Source: Candidatus Woesearchaeota archaeon
GTDB taxonomy: Archaea; Nanobdellota; Nanobdellia; SCGC-AAA011-G17; GW2011-AR17
Length of the DNA stretch: 64,000 nucleotides
Assembly: GCA_964411565.1 (NCBI GenBank)
Contig: CAYPLB010000005.1
Location: forward strand, 24,536-88,535
Direction of reading: 5' to 3'
Numbering within the stretch: position 1 is the first letter of the stretch; each line of letters opens with the position of its first letter. Of this stretch, positions 1,307-61,864 are shown piece by piece. The notes beneath the pieces are model-generated. The model did not search any database. It saw only the letters and a list, made by a program, of their open reading frames with translations, and had not been told where the DNA came from. Both the position numbers and the translations under genes were made by a program.

Positions 1307-1616
1307 ATCTTAAGATTAGACAAATTAGTTTTAAAAAGCTTCACCAAAAAAATCGGGAAGATTTTCAGAAACACAAATCTATTTAAACTACCTCACCTTA
1401 TAACTCTATGTAAGATCTTGACCTGTTTAGGTTAAGGATTTCTAGCTCAGAAGGTCTCTCCGGCGGGGGCAGTCATTCTAACTTAGGTTCAAATTACTTT
1501 AAAATTTGAGCATCTGATTCAGGTTCAAAAAAGTAGGTTTGAATAATTCCCCTTACAAATTAAAAAATAGAGTGTAGGGGGAAACATTTAAATACTATTA
1601 ATACCTAAAGATTTCT

Positions 1617-2847: not shown

Positions 2848-3783
2848 ATGCATATTGAAAAAAGAAAAGAAAAAAATAAAATCAAATACTATTTATCTCA
2901 TTCTTATAGAGAAGGAAAAAAGGTTCATAAATTTAGGAAATATTTGGGTTTAGATTTAAAACAATCAAAACTAAAAGAAAGAAAAGAAATTGCTGAAAAA
3001 CTAATTCTAGAAGAAATTCATAAATATAACATCATAAAAGATCCTTTAGAGTTCGAACTTTCAGAAGAACAGATAAAAGAAATAGAAAAAATAGAAGCAA
3101 AAATACCTTTAAAAGTTAAACACCTTTCAAAAAAAGATTGGGAACTATTCTCTGAAATATTTACTTACAACACAAATGCTATTGAAGGTAGTCAATTGAA
3201 TCTTAAAGAAGTTAAAAATATTCTTGAAGAAGACAAATGGCCTGATAAATCTAAAGAAGACATTGCTGAAACTTATGGTGTCGAAGAGGCCTTAACTTAT
3301 ATTAGGGGAACTAAAGAACATATAAACCTAGATTTAATTAAGAAGATTCATAAAATTGTTTTTAAAAATTCAAAGAGTTTTGCTGGAAAACTAAGAAAAA
3401 AAGGGGAAGATGTTGTAGTTAAAGATAGTAAAGGAAATATTGTTCATGAGGGTGCACCTCAAGAAAGAATCAATCACTTATTAAAAGAATTAATTAATTG
3501 GTATAACAAAAATAAGAATAGATATCCTGCATTAGTTCTTGGAGCTGTTGTTCATAACCAATTTGAGAATATTCATCCATTTGGAGATGGGAATGGGAGA
3601 GTTGGAAGAATCTTATTAAATAATATTTTTTTAAAACAAGGATTACCACCAATTAATATTGATTTCAAAAATAAAGCTGAATATTATAGTTCTTTAAAGG
3701 CTTATGAAAATAAAGATCTGAAGCCTACTATTAAGCTTTTTATTAAGGAGTATAGTATTCTTAAGAAAAAATTGAAGAAGTAG
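2848..3783 (+). CDS. Fic family protein (paralog 2)
   Basis: Fic motif HPFGDGNGRVGR. Confidence 0.8.
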   Translation: MHIEKRKEKNKIKYYLSHSYREGKKVHKFRKYLGLDLKQSKLKERKEIAEKLILEEIHKYNIIKDPLEFELSEEQIKEIEKIEAKIPLKVKHLSKKDWELFSEIFTYNTNAIEGSQLNLKEVKNILEEDKWPDKSKEDIAETYGVEEALTYIRGTKEHINLDLIKKIHKIVFKNSKSFAGKLRKKGEDVVVKDSKGNIVHEGAPQERINHLLKELINWYNKNKNRYPALVLGAVVHNQFENIHPFGDGNGRVGRILLNNIFLKQGLPPINIDFKNKAEYYSSLKAYENKDLKPTIKLFIKEYSILKKKLKK

Positions 3784-3852
3784 AAAAGTACTTAAAGCTC
3801 GTCGACAACTACTATTTAAAGTTAGGGAATACCTAGATTTTCGGAGACTGTT
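3783..3852. repeat. Intergenic repeat module R2, copy A (~70 bp)
   Basis: Matches 5774-5843 with one mismatch. Confidence 0.8.
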
Positions 3853-3885
3853 CGTTGAAGGCTCACGACCGGCGGGGGCATTCTT

Positions 3886-3968
3886 ACCCTTTAATTATTG
3901 AGTTTATCTATTACAGGGTAAACTATTCTATTACCCTTCCTGAAAAGTTTTCAAAAAATAAAGGGTAA
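3886..3968. promoter_or_regulatory. Four alternating-orientation copies of the heptamer AGGGTAA/TTACCCT upstream of Fic paralog 3
   Basis: TTACCCT, AGGGTAA, TTACCCT, AGGGTAA lie within ~80 bp, ending ~35 bp before the ATG at 4001. Confidence 0.3.
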
Positions 3969-4000: not shown

Positions 4001-5008
4001 ATGGTATATATCTACAAAAAAGTCATCTCAGGCAAAGCCTACTACTACCTGAGAATGTCCCAAAAAACAAAAAGAAGAACTGTAACAAAAGATATTGCCT
4101 ATTTAGGAAATGATCCTTCAAAAATTGAAAAAAAATTAGATTCCCTACCTAAAATATATCAAAAAGATATTAGAAAATCTCATAGAAATATAAAAAAATT
4201 TATCACCTCAGAATATTTGGTTAAAAAAGTAAAAAAACAAAAGTTAAAAGAGATTAAACTTCTAAAAAAAGAATTACACGAAGAAGTTGAAGCAATTAGA
4301 TTACACTATAAAGATCATTTTCTTAAAGAAGATGAATTAAGTAAGGAAGAAATATACAAACACTTCTTAATCGATTTTGCTTACAATACAACTTCACTTG
4401 AAGGAAATACTATCACATTAAAAGAAACTGAAAAATTATTACAAGAAGAACTCACACCAAAGAATAGAACTTTGAGAGAAATATATGACTTACAAAATAC
4501 AGAGGCAGTTTTCTTTGAATTATTAAGTAAGAAAGAACCCATAAATGATAAATTAATAATTTGGATGCATGACGAATTAGTAAAAAATATCGATAAAAGA
4601 ATAGGATATAGGTTAGGAGATATAAGAGTTTTTAGATCGAGATTTAATGCTTCACCAGGGAAATATGTTAAGGTTGATATGAAAATACTGTTAGATTGGT
4701 ACAAGAAAAATAAGAAAAAATTACATCCAATTGTTTTAGCTAGTGTGTTTCATCAAAAGTTCGAAAAAATTCATCCTTTTTATGATGGCAATGGAAGAAC
4801 TGGAAGAATATTAATGAATTATATGTTAATGTTAGAAGGATATCCACCTCTTGCAATAAGTAAAAAAAACAGAACTGAATATTTAGATTGTTTAGCTGAA
4901 GCGAATGATGTTAATATTGATGATATAGATGAAAGAAAGTATAAAAAATTAGTTGAGTTTGTTTCTAAAGAAATGATAAGTAAATATTGGAATCATTTTC
5001 TAGTCTGA
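4001..5008 (+). CDS. Fic family protein (paralog 3)
   Basis: Fic motif HPFYDGNGRTGR; N-terminus and C-terminus (WNHFLV) match paralog 1. Confidence 0.8.
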   Translation: MVYIYKKVISGKAYYYLRMSQKTKRRTVTKDIAYLGNDPSKIEKKLDSLPKIYQKDIRKSHRNIKKFITSEYLVKKVKKQKLKEIKLLKKELHEEVEAIRLHYKDHFLKEDELSKEEIYKHFLIDFAYNTTSLEGNTITLKETEKLLQEELTPKNRTLREIYDLQNTEAVFFELLSKKEPINDKLIIWMHDELVKNIDKRIGYRLGDIRVFRSRFNASPGKYVKVDMKILLDWYKKNKKKLHPIVLASVFHQKFEKIHPFYDGNGRTGRILMNYMLMLEGYPPLAISKKNRTEYLDCLAEANDVNIDDIDERKYKKLVEFVSKEMISKYWNHFLV

Positions 5009-5108
5009 GCAGAATAACTTAAATACCAATAAGACATATTATATTTAGCTTAATGGCATTACTCATATCTAAATTTGAGCAATGCATATGCAATGCTTTC
5101 GGAGAGCC
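4988..5108. repeat. Intergenic repeat module R1, copy B
   Basis: Near-identical to 2606-2727. Confidence 0.8.
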
Positions 5109-5345
5109 TTTACCGACCAGCGGGGGCGTCCTTATTCTGATACGACTCTCCACCCATATTTTAGGTCAAAAAAAGAGGGGCATCATGTCTCCGATACGAC
5201 TCTCCATTTTAGAATTCTACAAAAAATAAGATAGAAAGGCTTAAAAATAACCTTGTTAAACTTTGAAGTAAATAAGAATTTATAAAGAAAAAAATTCTTT
5301 TAGTTTTATGAGGATTTCAATAGAAGAAAAGGAGAGTAATTTTAT

Positions 5346-5714
5346 ATGTGGATAGAAGAACAAGAACATGGGCAGACCCATTATGTAAAGGAAGTAGATA
5401 TTAATGGGATGGTAGAATTAAGAGTTGTAAGTCCAGATGGAAGAAGAGTAAGAACAATAGAGTTTACCTTGGAAGAAGATGTAAGAAGTACGAAAAAACC
5501 TTATGACTTACAGTACTTTTTTGATGATAGAGGGATGCCAAGTTCTTTTAATCATTGTGGTGCTGCAGTATTTGGTACAAACTGGCCACCAAGTAATCTA
5601 TTAAAGAGAGACACTGAAGGAAATTTAAGAAGGGAATATGTTTTGTTAGGCTCAGAATATCCTTCTATAAAAGTTTCTTTAGATCGTTGTGTTGAAATAA
5701 TGGAAAGATTTTAG
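5346..5714 (+). CDS. Hypothetical protein (GC content higher than surroundings)
   Basis: 122-aa ORF with no recognisable motif; composition differs from neighbouring genes. Confidence 0.5.
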   Translation: MWIEEQEHGQTHYVKEVDINGMVELRVVSPDGRRVRTIEFTLEEDVRSTKKPYDLQYFFDDRGMPSSFNHCGAAVFGTNWPPSNLLKRDTEGNLRREYVLLGSEYPSIKVSLDRCVEIMERF

Positions 5715-37390: not shown

Positions 37391-37540
37391 TGGGACCGCA
37401 GGGATTCGAACCCTGGACACCTAGATATCTGAGAACAGTTCAAATAAACAAATTCATTTGATCTTCAGTTTCACTATGCTATTTTAAGCAAACTAGTGCT
37501 CTCCCAGACTGAGCTACGGTTTAATGCTCTTTTAAGACCC
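37391..37540 (-). tRNA. Intron-containing tRNA (anticodon unresolved); a ~60-nt intron in the anticodon region and a probable second small intron after acceptor nt 3
   Basis: Minus strand reads ACCG-TA-GCTC-AGTCTGGGA-GAGC ... GTGTC-CAGGG-TTCGAAT-CCCTG-CGGTCCC-A. The 5' acceptor strand continues only as ACCG. The GGG needed to pair with the 3' CCC lies 17 nt upstream (GGG|tcttaaaagagcattaa|ACCG). Confidence 0.55.
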
Positions 37541-37580: not shown

Positions 37581-38331
37581 TTAAAAGTTTCGTATATGAG
37601 AATTATATAAATCTATCTTATTATAATTTGAAAAACCAATTTCTTTAAACCATTTATTTACCATCTTTTCACCATAAACTGCAATTCTATATGCATCAAA
37701 ATATTTCTTTCTTGGTTCTCTTCTATAAGAAACTCTAAATCCAAAAGACAATAAAACTGTTTTAATTTGTTTTGATAAAACTTCACTAGTTGTTGTTATT
37801 TCTATACAAGGATAAGATAAATTATTACCTTTTTTAGCATAAAATAAAGATCCATCTGTATCAACAATTCCTCTTAAACAAGCAATTAGTAATTTTTTAT
37901 TAGCGAGCGTAGCGAGTCTTTGGGTTTAATACCTCGACCTTTAGGTCGTTTTGTTTTATTGCGCTAGCCTAACTTGATAGGATACCCCATCCCTTTAGGG
38001 TGGGGAGGATGTCATTTTTTAGAATTTTTTCAGGGATTTTAATTCTAGCATGTTTACCTTTGCCATGCTCAAGATTAATATTATTTATTAAATATAACAC
38101 TGCATCTTTTGAATAAAATTTTAATCTTAAACCTCTTTCCCTTATACTTAGTGAAGGATTTTTATTAAAACAAATACTTATTAAATTTGACAAATGATTG
38201 TAATATCTTTTTTCACAATGAGGATTTCCAACAATCTCAATAGAATAATGATTATTTTTACAATAAATACAACCATCACCAATAATAACACCTATTATTT
38301 CTGCCATAGATTCATTCAAAATATACCCCAT
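37581..38331 (-). pseudogene. Two-domain LAGLIDADG homing endonuclease gene interrupted by an in-frame stop, a frame change and a ~70-bp GC-rich insertion
   Basis: The N-domain ORF (38331-37969) has LAGLIDADG motif 1 (IIGVIIGDGCIY). The C-domain continues in another frame (about 37905-37581) with motif 2 (LLIACLRGIVDTDGSL). The intervening 37905-37975 is GC-rich, with a CGACCT-tt-AGGTCG hairpin and a CGAGCG-TAGCGAG repeat. Confidence 0.6.
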
Positions 38332-38436
38332 ATAACAATAAAATTAAAATAATTATATAAACTTCACGCGCACCCATGCCTTGTCCACACTAGAAATAAA
38401 AAAAACTTATAAACAAAAACATCCTTATAATCTAAC

Positions 38437-59976: not shown

Positions 59977-60111
59977 GGACCGGTAGCTCAGTTTGGTGGA
60001 GCACCTGGGGAGGGGAGTGAAGACAAATCATTATCATGAACCTCTTGGTGAAACTTTTACCAAGCTTTGGAAGATATCAGGTGGTCGCGGGTTCAAATCC
60101 CGTCCGGTCCA
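59977..60111 (+). tRNA. Intron-containing tRNA (anticodon unresolved), 3 nt downstream of tRNA-Asp
   Basis: GGACCGG/CCGGTCC acceptor, GCTC...GAGC D-arm, GCGGG-TTCAAAT-CCCGT T-arm; about 65 nt inserted between the anticodon-stem halves (CCTGG ... TCAGG) with an internal CTTGG/CCAAG hairpin. Confidence 0.6.
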
Positions 60112-60138: not shown

Positions 60139-60384
60139 ATGACTGAACTTGACATTGATGTTACAAAACATATCCTTGTGCCCAAACACGAAAAACTCTC
60201 TGAAGAGGAAGCTGAAGAAATTCTAAAAAATCTTAATACAAACACAAAAAGACTTCCTAGAATTGTATTATCAGATCCAGCAATTAAAGGATTAGATGCG
60301 GAAAGAGGCGATATAATCAGAATTACAAGAAAAAGTGAAACAGTCGGAAAAACATATTATTATAGGGTGGTTGTAGATGGATAA
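60139..60384 (+). CDS. rpoH: DNA-directed RNA polymerase subunit H (start moved to MTELDID)
   Basis: HILVPKHEKLSEEE...GDIIRITRKSETVG...YRVV resembles RpoH/Rpb5; the track ORF start at 60067 overlaps the tRNA. Confidence 0.8.
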   Translation: MTELDIDVTKHILVPKHEKLSEEEAEEILKNLNTNTKRLPRIVLSDPAIKGLDAERGDIIRITRKSETVGKTYYYRVVVDG

Positions 60385-61864
60385 TAAAAAATTACTAATT
60401 CAAAAATACTTTGAAGAACATTCTTTCATTGAGTCTAGCTTAGCTTCATTTAACAAATTTGTAGAAGTTGAAATGCAAAAAACTATTACTGAAATTGGAG
60501 ATATTATTCCAACAATTCTTCCTCCAGATGTTCAAGAATTTAGAATCAAATTAGATAAAATTTGGATTGAAAAACCACAAATTACTGAGGCTGATGGATC
60601 AAAAAGACCAATCTATCCAATTGAAGCAAGATTAAGAAAATTAACTTATGCTGCTCCAATATTCCTAGAAGTATCTGCTTATGTCGATGGGATCCAAAGA
60701 GAATCATTTGTAGCACAAATTGGAAAAATCCCTATTATGTTAAAATCAAAAAATTGTCATTTATACAAATTAAATGAGGAAGAATTAATTGATCATGGTG
60801 AAGATCCAAATAACTTAGGTGGATATTTTATTATAAATGGAAATGAGAGAGTAATTATTACAGTTGAAGATTTATTACCTAACAAAATTTTCTTCCAACA
60901 AAATAAAATTGGACCAAGTAAATATACTGCTAGAATTTTTTCTCAGAGAGGACCTTATAGTATTCCTCATGTAATAGAACAAATGAAAGATGGTATTTTC
61001 TACATTTCATTTACAAAGTTCAAAAGAATACCTTTATTTGCTGTAATAAAAGCATTGGGTATGACTAGAGATCAAGATATTATGCAGGCAATTTGTGACG
61101 AGAAAGAGTATGATGACATTTACATTAATTTATACAACTCTGTAGAATTACAAAATGTTGAAGATTCAACTGAATTTATTGCAAAAAAAGTTGGACTAAC
61201 TCAACCAAGAGAAGTAAGAATAGAAAGAACAACAGAACAACTTTATCATTACCTACTTCCTCATATAGGAATTACACAAAAAGAAAATAATCTAAAAGCT
61301 CATCATTTATGTAAATTAGTAAAAAGATTCTTACAAGTTTCAAAAGATGAAAAAACAATTACTGATAAAGATCATTATAAAAACAAAAAATTAAAACTTG
61401 CTGGAGAACTTATCTCAGATTTATTCAGAGTAAACATGAGAGTTTTAGTAAACGATATTCTTTACAACTTCCAAAGGCTTGTAAAGAGAGGAAAATTCCA
61501 ATCAGTAAAAATTATTATTAGGGACAAACTTTTAACTTCAAGACTAAATAGTGCAATTGCTACTGGTCAATGGGTTGGAGGACGAAGAGGAATAAGTCAA
61601 AACATTGCAAAAGTTAACTACTTAGATACTCTTTCACACTTAAGCAGAGTTGTTTCTTTACTTTCAGCTACACAAGAAAATTTTGAAGCTAGAGAAATTC
61701 ACTCTACTCACTGGGGAAGACTTTGTCCAATTGAAACTCCAGAAGGGACACCAATTGGTTTAAGAAAAAATTTAGCAATGCTTTCACAAATTACACAAAA
61801 GAATATTCCAGAAGAGAAAACAAAGAAAAATTTAGAAAATTTAGGAGTTAAACTGATAAAATGA
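60377..61864 (+). CDS. rpoB2: DNA-directed RNA polymerase subunit B'' (N-terminal portion of split B)
   Basis: Conserved RNAP beta-like N-terminal blocks; 4-bp overlaps with rpoH and rpoB1. Confidence 0.85.
   Translation: MDNKKLLIQKYFEEHSFIESSLASFNKFVEVEMQKTITEIGDIIPTILPPDVQEFRIKLDKIWIEKPQITEADGSKRPIYPIEARLRKLTYAAPIFLEVSAYVDGIQRESFVAQIGKIPIMLKSKNCHLYKLNEEELIDHGEDPNNLGGYFIINGNERVIITVEDLLPNKIFFQQNKIGPSKYTARIFSQRGPYSIPHVIEQMKDGIFYISFTKFKRIPLFAVIKALGMTRDQDIMQAICDEKEYDDIYINLYNSVELQNVEDSTEFIAKKVGLTQPREVRIERTTEQLYHYLLPHIGITQKENNLKAHHLCKLVKRFLQVSKDEKTITDKDHYKNKKLKLAGELISDLFRVNMRVLVNDILYNFQRLVKRGKFQSVKIIIRDKLLTSRLNSAIATGQWVGGRRGISQNIAKVNYLDTLSHLSRVVSLLSATQENFEAREIHSTHWGRLCPIETPEGTPIGLRKNLAMLSQITQKNIPEEKTKKNLENLGVKLIK

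What the first reader, a model, noticed from the sequence alone, without database searches (positions are those of the whole stretch)
37581..38331. Interrupted free-standing LAGLIDADG homing endonuclease immediately upstream of the intron-containing tRNA
The first domain (ORF 38331-37969) has LAGLIDADG motif IIGVIIGDGCIY. After a TAG stop and a frame change the second domain continues with LIACLRGIVDTDGSL and runs to about 37581. This stretch has no ORF in the track. Between the domains lies a ~70-bp segment that is much more GC-rich than its context. It carries a perfect CGACCT/AGGTCG hairpin and a CGAGCG...TAGCGAG repeat. It looks like a small insertion, such as a mini mobile element or a degenerate intron, rather than simple point decay. 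Archaeal LAGLIDADG enzymes are usually encoded in rRNA introns or inteins. A free-standing, split copy next to a tRNA is unusual.
Basis: seen in the sequence. Interest (0 to 1): 0.6.

Follow-up and report, generated by a model that had tools for sequence, protein, structure and literature searches.

The report
Mini-transposon splits tRNA-linked homing endonuclease gene
A 115-base miniature transposon of the IS200/IS605 family has recently landed between the two halves of a LAGLIDADG homing-endonuclease gene in a tiny (DPANN) archaeon; the disruption itself is ordinary, but this gene family always sits beside, or once inside an intron of, the phenylalanine tRNA gene, which hints at how archaeal tRNA introns move.

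Summary
On the minus strand, 38331-38014 and 37898-37581 are the two halves of one 211-codon double-LAGLIDADG gene. They are separated by a G+C-rich insert of 115 bp (not ~70 bp) that brings a stop codon and a frame shift.

A syntenic Nanoarchaeota orthologue (L138) has the uninterrupted site, CTAAAAAAT|AAAAAATTA. Five separate metagenome assemblies carry the identical interrupted allele.

The insert is a non-autonomous IS200/IS605-type element (MITE/PATE), antisense to the gene.
- Its last 31 nt (CCCCATCCC-TTTA-GGGTGGGG-AGGATGTCAT) match the conserved right end that closes tnpB and tnpA genes in more than 100 bacterial and archaeal genomes. Rfam's HgcC and sotRNA families share this motif.
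- Its left double hairpin recurs in a stand-alone element of a Methanosarcinales genome.
- It is not a BHB intron. Apart from the insert the gene is intact (dN/dS 0.11), so the knockout is recent.

The tRNA link is the unexpected result.
- In 11 of 11 genomic contexts this LAGLIDADG family abuts tRNA-Phe(GAA).
- In one genome the ORF lies inside a BHB intron at position 30/31 of that tRNA.
- The window's tRNA-Phe and a tRNA-Lys carry ORF-less introns at the same position.

The MITE insertion is ordinary. The tRNA link deserves follow-up.

The parts
38014..38331 (-). LAGLIDADG gene, codons 1-106 (first domain, motif IIGVIIGDG). In the interrupted allele the reading frame runs 14 codons further into the insert, to the TAG at 37969-37971.
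37581..37898 (-). LAGLIDADG gene, codons 107-211 plus the stop codon (second domain, motif LRGIVDTDGS). It is shifted into another frame and has no ATG/GTG/TTG start before 37751, so it cannot be translated on its own.
37901..38015 (+). 115-bp insert: a non-autonomous IS200/IS605-type element antisense to the gene. ATT occurs at both junctions, so the true limits could be 37899-38013, 37900-38014, 37901-38015 or 37902-38016. The range 37901-38015 (TAGCG...GTCAT) is preferred by analogy with related right ends.
   Evidence: Empty site in L138/L139; right ends of relatives stop at GTCAN; composition.
37901..37916 (+). Tandem direct repeat TAGCGAG-CG-TAGCGAG at the left terminus of the insert.
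   Evidence: Read directly from the sequence.
37922..37948 (+). Left-end double hairpin GGGTTTAATACCT + CGACC-TTTA-GGTCG. It is 23/28 identical to the left module of a stand-alone element in a Methanosarcinales MAG (L044).
37985..38015 (+). Right-end module: hairpin CCCCATCCC-TTTA-GGGTGGGG followed by AGGATGTCAT. This is the conserved right end / omega-RNA 3' motif of IS200/IS605/IS1341 elements.
38353..38361 (-). TTTATATAA box, centred about 26 nt upstream of the ATG. It is the probable archaeal promoter of the LAGLIDADG gene (inferred from position only).
37391..37540 (-). tRNA-Phe(GAA) gene with three BHB introns: 37521-37537 (position 3/4, 17 nt), 37470-37492 (30/31, 23 nt) and 37427-37462 (37/38, 36 nt).
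   Evidence: Rfam tRNA hit; fold; the in-silico spliced 74-mer is called tRNA-Phe(gaa) by ARAGORN.
37470..37492 (-). ORF-less mini-intron at tRNA position 30/31. It has the same position, the same BHB register (CACY / bulge / inner helix / RGUG / AAA) and the same 3' end (GTGAA|ACTGAAGA) as the intron that contains the LAGLIDADG ORF in L144.

Best explanation
The locus is one gene for a 211-aa single-chain LAGLIDADG endonuclease. It belongs to a DPANN-archaeal family that always accompanies the tRNA-Phe(GAA) gene.

In this population the gene has been knocked out by the precise insertion of a 115-bp non-autonomous IS200/IS605-family element (a MITE, called PATE in haloarchaea). The insert lies in the linker between the two domains, antisense to the gene.

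Shown:
- The insertion is exact relative to an empty orthologous site.
- Its right 31 nt are the conserved right-end hairpin and tail found at the 3' ends of tnpB and tnpA genes.
- It encodes nothing.
- It brings a stop codon after 14 foreign codons and a +1 shift, so the second domain is not translated.

Inferred:
- It was mobilised in trans, as single-stranded DNA, by a Y1 (HUH) TnpA transposase that binds the subterminal hairpins ('peel and paste').
- It inserted 3' of a short T-rich target (TTTAT|T) without target duplication, and it could be excised seamlessly.
- A transcript of its right end could serve a TnpB nuclease as a guide (omega) RNA whose guide is the adjacent LAGLIDADG sequence.
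- The insertion is recent, because the rest of the gene shows no decay.
For: (1) Empty site. The orthologue P0079 (211 aa, Nanoarchaeota MAG GCA_016784245.1) lies in the same gene order. At the site it reads ...CTAAAAAAT|AAAAAATTA..., and the window has 115 extra bases exactly there.

(2) Intact apart from the insert. With the insert removed, the window gene is an open 211-codon frame, 88.8% identical in DNA to the orthologue, with dS 0.475 and dN/dS 0.11.

(3) Conserved right-end motif. The 23-nt motif CCCTTYAGGGNGGGGAGGANGTC taken from the insert occurs in at least 119 stretches of the genome collection. My own arithmetic gives about 0.5 expected by chance.
- Of 80 occurrences with at least 1.5 kb of upstream DNA, 29 close a tnpB ORF on the same strand and 8 follow an IS200-type tnpA.
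- Five of five tested ORFs hit Pfam OrfB_IS605 plus Cas12f1-like_TNB.
- Copies diverge immediately after GTCAN, which marks an element end.

(4) Annotated records agree. BLAST of the insert hits the 3' end of an annotated transposase gene (Methylobacter plasmid), and also the sequence just downstream of an 'IS200/IS605 family transposase' gene on Halorhabdus pHTIA.

(5) RNA families. Rfam gives weak hits to HgcC (19.2 bits) and to the 3' hairpin of sot0042. Both are linked in the literature to the right end of IS1341/tnpB elements and to PATEs (PMC4615843).

(6) Left end. The left double hairpin recurs 140 nt upstream of a right-end motif in a stand-alone element of a Methanosarcinales MAG.

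(7) Not an artefact. The identical interrupted allele is present in five separately assembled metagenomes.
Against: - No second copy of the element was found: not in the 64-kb window, not in the metagenome or viral collections, and not through translated-peptide searching.
- No tnpA or tnpB lies in the window.
- The left hairpin shares only the CC-TTTA-GG core with the right hairpin. In full-length relatives the two hairpins are nearly identical.
- A 3-bp ATT at both junctions leaves open a 3-bp target duplication, which would be untypical of IS200/IS605.
- Predicted folding energy is not significantly better than shuffled sequence.
- The match to HgcC is far below Rfam's threshold.
Confidence: 0.85

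Rival explanations
1. The insert is what remains of a full-length IS200/IS605 element (with tnpB and/or tnpA) that inserted here and then lost its interior by deletion in place. On this reading it was never mobilised as a miniature element.
For: Only one copy is known. The left and right modules are separated by only about 36 nt here, against about 100 nt in the related L044 element.
Against: A stand-alone element with the same left and right modules exists in an unrelated archaeon, which suggests that short forms of this element circulate. 48 of 80 right-end motifs in other genomes are also stand-alone. The evidence cannot separate the two histories.
Confidence: 0.08
2. The 115 nt are an intron (archaeal BHB type or other) removed from the mRNA, so the gene is still functional.
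For: The genome is rich in BHB introns: three in the adjacent tRNA-Phe and two in tRNA-Lys. The rest of the gene is intact.
Against: Both junctions are A-rich on the mRNA strand (CUAAAAAAU|GACAUCC ... CGCUAAU|AAAAAAUUA). They therefore cannot form the 4-bp central helix with two 3-nt bulges. The minimum-energy fold pairs neither junction with the other. At 115 nt the insert is too short for a group I or group II ribozyme, and no Rfam intron family matches it. Its conserved motif reads on the opposite strand and is a transposon end.
Confidence: 0.03
3. The interruption is an assembly or chimera artefact.
For: None, beyond the abrupt change in composition.
Against: 1,400 nt around the insert are 100% identical in five contigs from five different metagenome assemblies (four JGI, one ENA).
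Confidence: 0.01
4. The split is tolerated or functional: the two halves are made as separate polypeptides that assemble, as homodimeric LAGLIDADG enzymes do.
For: The N-terminal ORF is intact and has a promoter-like TATA box.
Against: The second half has no ATG, GTG or TTG before codon 156 of the original gene. The LAGLIDADG helix and catalytic Asp of domain 2 therefore cannot be translated from a canonical start.
Confidence: 0.03

Closest known systems
PATEs / MITEs derived from IS200/IS605 (IS1341-type) elements, e.g. the fused left-end + right-end unit VNG_R0052 of Halobacterium salinarum (PMC4615843)
   Same: It is a short, non-coding unit carrying the transposon's subterminal hairpins. 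It has the same right-end hairpin with a UUYA loop and the GGAGGAKGUCA tail. It occurs without a transposase gene.
   Different: At 115 bp it is very short. It comes from a 28.5% G+C Nanoarchaeota-like genome. Only one copy is known so far. Its left hairpin differs in stem sequence from the right one.
HgcC RNA family (Rfam RF00062; high-GC RNAs of AT-rich hyperthermophiles)
   Same: It is a G+C-rich island in an AT-rich archaeal genome. It has a 5' hairpin, a 3' hairpin CCCCxCCC-UUUA-GGGxGGGG and the tail GAGGAKGUCA.
   Different: It scores 19.2 bits against a gathering score of 50, and the central ~30 nt of the model are missing. It is not a member by Rfam's criterion.
TnpB omega RNA / sotRNAs (transcripts covering the 3' end of tnpB and the transposon right end)
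   Same: The same terminal motif closes tnpB genes in 29 loci examined here.
   Different: No tnpB lies upstream here. Expression and guide function were not tested.
I-DmoI and I-Tsp061I: single-chain LAGLIDADG endonucleases encoded in BHB introns of archaeal rRNA genes
   Same: Same fold and size (Foldseek TM 0.65-0.77). In L144 the ORF likewise fills a BHB intron.
   Different: The host gene is a tRNA (tRNA-Phe, position 30/31), not an rRNA. In most genomes the ORF lies beside the tRNA gene rather than in the intron.
Homing-endonuclease genes in group I introns of bacterial tRNA genes (PMC13011429), and 'collaborative homing' of a free-standing endonuclease gene with an ORF-less intron in phage (recalled from memory, not checked here)
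   Same: An endonuclease gene is linked to a tRNA gene whose intron interrupts a conserved site. The free-standing gene plus ORF-less intron arrangement matches the phage case.
   Different: The introns here are protein-spliced BHB introns, not ribozymes. Cleavage of the intron-less tRNA-Phe gene has not been shown.

Membership tests
LAGLIDADG homing endonuclease (single-chain, two motifs) | Two LAGLIDADG helices, each ending in a conserved acidic residue | tested here: met
   IIGDG (D19) and GIVDTDG (D119, D121) are invariant across 46 family members.
LAGLIDADG homing endonuclease (single-chain, two motifs) | Profile similarity of both halves to known LAGLIDADG domains | tested here: met
   C-terminal half: Pfam LAGLIDADG_3 at 39.8 bits (cut-off 22.5). 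N-terminal half alone is below Pfam's cut-off (16.2 against 25). The family profile, however, hits the I-DmoI N-terminal domain at E = 1e-5 and an intein endonuclease over residues 3-188 at E = 1e-7.
LAGLIDADG homing endonuclease (single-chain, two motifs) | Pseudo-dimeric alpha-beta-beta-alpha-beta-beta-alpha fold | tested here: met
   AlphaFold2 model with pLDDT 95.8 and pTM 0.92. Top Foldseek matches are the TliVMA intein endonuclease, PI-PfuI, I-Tsp061I and I-DmoI, at E = 1e-8 to 1e-11.
LAGLIDADG homing endonuclease (single-chain, two motifs) | Site-specific DNA cleavage and homing | not testable with these tools
   Needs biochemistry. The only indirect evidence is the linkage to tRNA-Phe and the ORF-in-intron case in L144.
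IS200/IS605-family non-autonomous element (MITE/PATE) | Right end identical in type to that of autonomous elements carrying tnpA/tnpB | tested here: met
IS200/IS605-family non-autonomous element (MITE/PATE) | Subterminal hairpin at the left end resembling the right-end hairpin | tested here: inconclusive
   A TTTA-loop hairpin (CGACC/GGTCG) is present and is shared with the L044 element. Its stem differs from the right-end stem, whereas full-length relatives have near-identical left and right hairpins.
IS200/IS605-family non-autonomous element (MITE/PATE) | Insertion 3' of a short target with no target-site duplication; seamless empty site | tested here: inconclusive
   The empty site is seamless and no target base is lost. 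ATT at both junctions is compatible either with no duplication or with a 3-bp duplication.
IS200/IS605-family non-autonomous element (MITE/PATE) | Several copies per genome and a transposase source in the same genome | tested here: not met
   No second copy was found in the window or in any collection searched. No tnpA/tnpB lies in the window. The rest of the source genome could not be searched, so this is absence of evidence.
HgcC RNA (RF00062) | Score at or above Rfam's gathering threshold (50 bits) | tested here: not met
   19.2 bits for the window insert and 14.1 bits for the related L044 element. None of 18 other loci that carry the motif reach the threshold.
Archaeal BHB intron (as an explanation of the 115-nt insert) | 4-bp helix flanked by two 3-nt bulges that bring the two junctions together | tested here: not met
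   Both junctions are A-rich and cannot pair, and the fold shows no such motif.
BHB intron carrying a homing-endonuclease ORF (L144), and its ORF-less counterpart (window tRNA-Phe intron 2) | BHB motif at the exon-intron junctions, and a functional tRNA after removal | tested here: met
   L144 reads CACC[AGA]UAAGGUG...ORF...CACCUUA GGUG[AAA]CUGAAGA: a 4-bp helix, two 3-nt bulges and a 7-bp inner helix. The spliced products of both L144 and the window are called tRNA-Phe(gaa) by ARAGORN. The pairing was read by eye, and splicing itself was not tested.

The most novel reading that the evidence does not exclude
This LAGLIDADG family may be a homing system aimed at the anticodon arm of tRNA-Phe(GAA) genes in DPANN archaea. 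It would move BHB tRNA introns at the DNA level.

In some genomes the ORF sits inside the intron at position 30/31 (L144). In most it is free-standing, right next to a tRNA-Phe whose ORF-less mini-intron at the same position would protect the target. That would be an archaeal counterpart of 'collaborative homing'.

The same type of 30/31 intron in tRNA-Lys(UUU) of this window would then be a product of its spread. This would give the first concrete mechanism for archaeal tRNA-intron gain and transposition, which the 2014 review PMC4090602 calls unknown.

On this reading the copy in the window is such an element, freshly inactivated by a second selfish element: the IS200/IS605 MITE.
Probability: 0.4. 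Interest if true: 0.75.

Novelty: new variant of a known kind. Interest (0 to 1): 0.5.

Why it matters
The interruption itself is routine genome biology: a miniature transposon landing in another selfish gene. It is a clean natural case, with the filled and the empty site both available. It also extends the HgcC-like, TnpB-type right-end motif to an AT-rich DPANN genome.

The more valuable result is the strict linkage of this endonuclease family to tRNA-Phe genes, including one ORF inside a BHB tRNA intron. Archaeal tRNA introns are known to spread between tRNA genes, but no agent has been identified. A LAGLIDADG enzyme tied to one intron position makes that question testable with a simple cleavage assay.

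Tried and rejected
- **BHB or ribozyme intron as the nature of the insert.** Rejected. The junctions cannot pair, 115 nt is too short for a ribozyme, and the conserved motif lies on the other strand.
- **Assembly artefact.** Rejected by five identical assemblies.
- **Membership in Rfam HgcC.** Rejected on score.
- **More copies of the element.** None found in the window with up to 3 mismatches or short-word BLAST. The right-end variant searched in metagenome contigs gave 7 hits, all from unrelated organisms with an IS200 tnpA upstream. The right-end variant, the left-terminal repeat sequence and the left double-hairpin pattern gave 0 hits in viral contigs. A protein search with the element translated in several frames gave 0 hits.
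- **tnpB in the window.** A search with an HMM built from 21 tnpB ORFs found nothing.
- **The 19-nt and 14-nt matches to 60382-60400 and 60218-60231**. These fall in the rpoH/rpoB coding sequence (EILKN, NKKLLI). I treated them as coincidences of AT-rich codon usage.
- **Folding-energy z-scores of the insert.** Not significant, so not used as evidence.
- **Distant LAGLIDADG relatives on viral contigs, used as a control.** None has a tRNA nearby.

Full report
**What is in the sequence.**
On the minus strand an ORF runs from 38331 to a TAG at 37969 (120 aa, with IIGVIIGDGCIY). A second frame reads NKKLLIACLRGIVDTDGSL... down to the stop at 37581. Between them lies a G+C-rich stretch containing the hairpin CGACC-TTTA-GGTCG and the tandem repeat TAGCGAG-CG-TAGCGAG, both read on the + strand. 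The insert is 47% G+C. The two gene halves are 23-24% and the window 28.5%.

**Both halves belong to one LAGLIDADG gene.**
- The C-terminal half hits Pfam LAGLIDADG_3 (E = 5.6e-10). The N-terminal half alone gives only a weak LAGLIDADG_2 hit (E = 0.011).
- A search with the rejoined protein found 78 relatives, almost all uninterrupted proteins of 207-220 aa from DPANN metagenomes and MAGs labelled Nanoarchaeota or Diapherotrites.
- In the alignment the window's two halves abut without losing a residue...IPEKILKN|KKLLIACLRGIVDTDGS.
- A profile of 46 members hits the N-terminal domain of I-DmoI (E = 1e-5) and an intein endonuclease domain over residues 3-188 (E = 1e-7).
- The AlphaFold2 model of the rejoined protein has pLDDT 95.8. 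Its best Foldseek matches are the TliVMA intein endonuclease, PI-PfuI, the archaeal intron-encoded I-Tsp061I and I-DmoI.

**The interruption is a precise insertion, shown by an empty site.**
- The 90%-identity cluster of the truncated ORF also holds a 211-aa protein, MBL7051466.1, from a Nanoarchaeota MAG.
- Its gene (L138) lies in the same gene order: class II aminoacyl-tRNA synthetase, ThiI-like ATPase, a gene for a protein of about 160 aa, the LAGLIDADG gene, a tRNA, a gene for a protein of about 157 aa, then a DEAD-box helicase.
- At the site it reads CTAAAAAAT|AAAAAATTA. The window has exactly 115 additional bases there, with AAT (ATT on the + strand) at both junctions.
- With the insert removed, the window gene is an open 211-codon frame, 88.8% identical in DNA to the orthologue, with dS 0.475 and dN/dS 0.11. 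The gene was therefore under purifying selection for nearly all of that divergence, and the insertion is its only lesion.
- The interrupted allele is 100% identical over 1,400 nt in five contigs from five metagenome assemblies. It is not an assembly artefact.

**What the insert is.**
- Rfam gave weak + strand hits to HgcC (19.2 bits; gathering score 50) and to the terminal hairpin of sot0042. Gomes-Filho et al. (PMC4615843) tie both to the right end of IS1341-type tnpB elements and to the PATEs derived from them.
- I took the 23-nt motif CCCTTYAGGGNGGGGAGGANGTC from the insert and scanned one genome for each of 185,579 prokaryotic species. My arithmetic gives about 0.5 expected by chance. The hosts include haloarchaea, Thermoproteota, Archaeoglobales, Thermococcaceae, Micrarchaeota, actinobacteria and proteobacteria.
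- Sequences from different copies are conserved up to ...GGAGGAKGTCAN and diverge immediately afterwards, which is the signature of an element terminus.
- Of 80 occurrences with at least 1.5 kb of upstream DNA, 29 close a tnpB ORF on the same strand, 8 follow an IS200-type tnpA, and 48 stand alone. Five of five tested ORFs hit Pfam OrfB_IS605 and Cas12f1-like_TNB.
- BLAST of the insert against annotated plasmids hits the 3' end of a 'transposase' gene. It also hits the sequence just downstream of an 'IS200/IS605 family transposase' gene.
- The right 31 nt of the insert (37985-38015) are therefore the right end of an IS200/IS605-family element.

**The left end.**
- Full-length relatives have, upstream of tnpB, a hairpin almost identical to the right-end hairpin.
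- The insert instead has two adjacent hairpins, GGGTTTAATACCT and CGACC-TTTA-GGTCG, which share only the CC-TTTA-GG core with the right end.
- The same double hairpin, 23 of 28 positions identical, lies 140 nt upstream of a right-end motif in a stand-alone element of a Methanosarcinales MAG (L044). It occurs nowhere else among 139 loci.
- The window insert is thus a short member of a family of non-coding elements with this left module and the common right module.
- By analogy with the two Micrarchaeota copies, which diverge after GTCAT, I place the element at 37901-38015, inserted after TTTTTTAT. The ATT at both junctions makes any of four registers possible.

**How it most likely works.**
Shown: a non-coding 115-bp unit with a transposon right end has been inserted exactly between codons 106 and 107, antisense to the gene. 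Translation now ends after 14 foreign codons. The second domain is out of frame and has no start codon before the original codon 156.

Inferred from what is established for IS200/IS605 elements:
- The unit is moved in trans, as single-stranded DNA, by a Y1 HUH transposase that binds the subterminal hairpins.
- It inserts 3' of a short target without duplication and excises seamlessly, so the gene could in principle be restored.
- A transcript through the right end into the flank could act as an omega RNA for a TnpB supplied in trans.

None of these steps could be tested. There is no transposase gene in the window, and no second copy was found anywhere.

**Rivals.**
- An mRNA intron is excluded as far as sequence can exclude it. 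The two junctions are both A-rich on the mRNA strand and cannot form a bulge-helix-bulge. The fold does not bring them together. 115 nt cannot hold a ribozyme, and no intron family matches.
- A relic of a full-length element that was deleted in place cannot be separated from a MITE proper with one copy.
- A functional split enzyme is unlikely, for lack of a start codon for domain 2.

**The tRNA link.**
This goes beyond the finding as given.
- The neighbouring tRNA, once three BHB introns are removed (3/4, 17 nt; 30/31, 23 nt; 37/38, 36 nt), is a canonical 74-nt tRNA-Phe(GAA).
- I examined every family member for which DNA could be fetched. In all 11 distinct contexts a tRNA-Phe(GAA) gene touches the 3' side of the LAGLIDADG gene, although the other neighbours differ.
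- The tRNA lies on the same strand 27-60 nt downstream in the window, L138, L142, L146, L148 and L009.
- It is convergent and abutting or overlapping in L006, L010, L149 and L150.
- In L144 the gene lies inside the tRNA.
- In L144 the 5' half of tRNA-Phe ends at ...GAGCACCAG. The 207-codon ORF follows at once, and the 3' half resumes at ACTGAAGATCTGG.... The junctions form CACC[AGA]UAAGGUG...CACCUUA GGUG[AAA]: a 4-bp helix, two 3-nt bulges and a 7-bp inner helix. The spliced product is tRNA-Phe(GAA).
- ORF-less introns at the same 30/31 position, ending RGTGA(A/T)|ACTGAAGA, are present in the window, L138, L006, L148 and L149.
- In the window a tRNA-Lys(UUU) at 59977-60110 also carries such an intron.
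- As a control, 21 distant LAGLIDADG relatives on viral contigs have no tRNA nearby.

In the paper library I found endonuclease ORFs described in archaeal rRNA BHB introns and in bacterial group I tRNA introns. I found none in archaeal tRNA BHB introns. A 2014 review states that the mechanism of archaeal tRNA-intron transposition is unknown. The library is incomplete, so the novelty is provisional.

**Verdict.**
The finding as given is real and is explained: a recent knockout of a LAGLIDADG gene by an IS200/IS605-type miniature element. It is a new member of a known kind and is ordinary in itself. The gene's constant partnership with tRNA-Phe, and its intron-encoded form in one genome, make the locus more interesting than the interruption does. 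That link is shown as an association only; endonuclease activity and homing remain to be tested.

Noticed in passing
L144 1966-2668 (GCA_964574035.1, CAZNLD010000011.1): A 207-aa member of the same LAGLIDADG family fills a ~630-nt BHB intron at position 30/31 of tRNA-Phe(GAA). The spliced product is a canonical tRNA-Phe.
   Followed up: partly
window 37391-37540 (-): tRNA-Phe(GAA) has three introns (positions 3/4, 30/31 and 37/38). ARAGORN misses it, and Rfam matches only model positions 4-67.
   Followed up: yes
window 59977-60110 (+): An unannotated tRNA-Lys(UUU) lies directly after tRNA-Asp. It has a 45-nt intron at 30/31 with the same BHB context as the tRNA-Phe intron (GAGCACC...GGTGAA|A), plus a 16-nt intron at 37/38. 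The same intron type therefore sits in two different tRNAs of one genome.
   Followed up: partly
loci L006, L010, L138, L142, L144, L146/147; P0052 context: Aminoacyl-tRNA synthetase genes (class I Ile/Val/Leu type, SerRS, PheRS-beta, Pro/ThrRS type) lie within one to four genes of the LAGLIDADG gene in most contexts. This may be chance in small, translation-heavy genomes.
   Followed up: no
window 38362-38392 (-); same position in L138, L009, L146, L006: A G+C-richer box with repeated GACA-like words (tGGACAaGgCATG...) lies just upstream of the TATA box of the LAGLIDADG gene in several family members. It could be an operator.
   Followed up: no
window 1414-1502, 2690-2790, 3820-3910, 5072-5193 (and repeats 2556-2735/4937-5116, 3775-3859/5766-5850): Repeated G+C-rich intergenic units share the cores TTCGGAGA and GGCGGGGGCA. 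They lie between ORFs of 311-336 aa (1617-2627, 2848-3783, 4001-5008) and ahead of a 122-aa ORF at 5346. No Rfam family matches. They could be a leader or a small RNA family.
   Followed up: no
window 37884-37902 vs 60382-60400, and 38014-38027 vs 60218-60231: The two flanks of the insertion site have exact 19-nt and 14-nt matches, in the same order and orientation, at the rpoH end and the rpoB start (peptides EILKN and NKKLLI). This is probably coincidence of AT-rich codon usage, but the pairing is odd.
   Followed up: partly
L045, L072, L078, L087, L096, L111, L121, L129 (Thermoproteota genomes): Many stand-alone copies consist of only about 45 nt of the right end (TTACAACTGAAAGCCTCGCCCTTYAGGGCGGGGAGGAGGTCAG) in otherwise unrelated sequence. 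This is a very small right-end-only repeat family.
   Followed up: no
L131-L137 (metagenome contigs): The same right-end motif directly follows IS200-type tnpA genes, whose C-terminal coding sequence runs into the hairpin. The motif is thus shared by elements that carry only tnpA and by elements that carry tnpB.
   Followed up: partly
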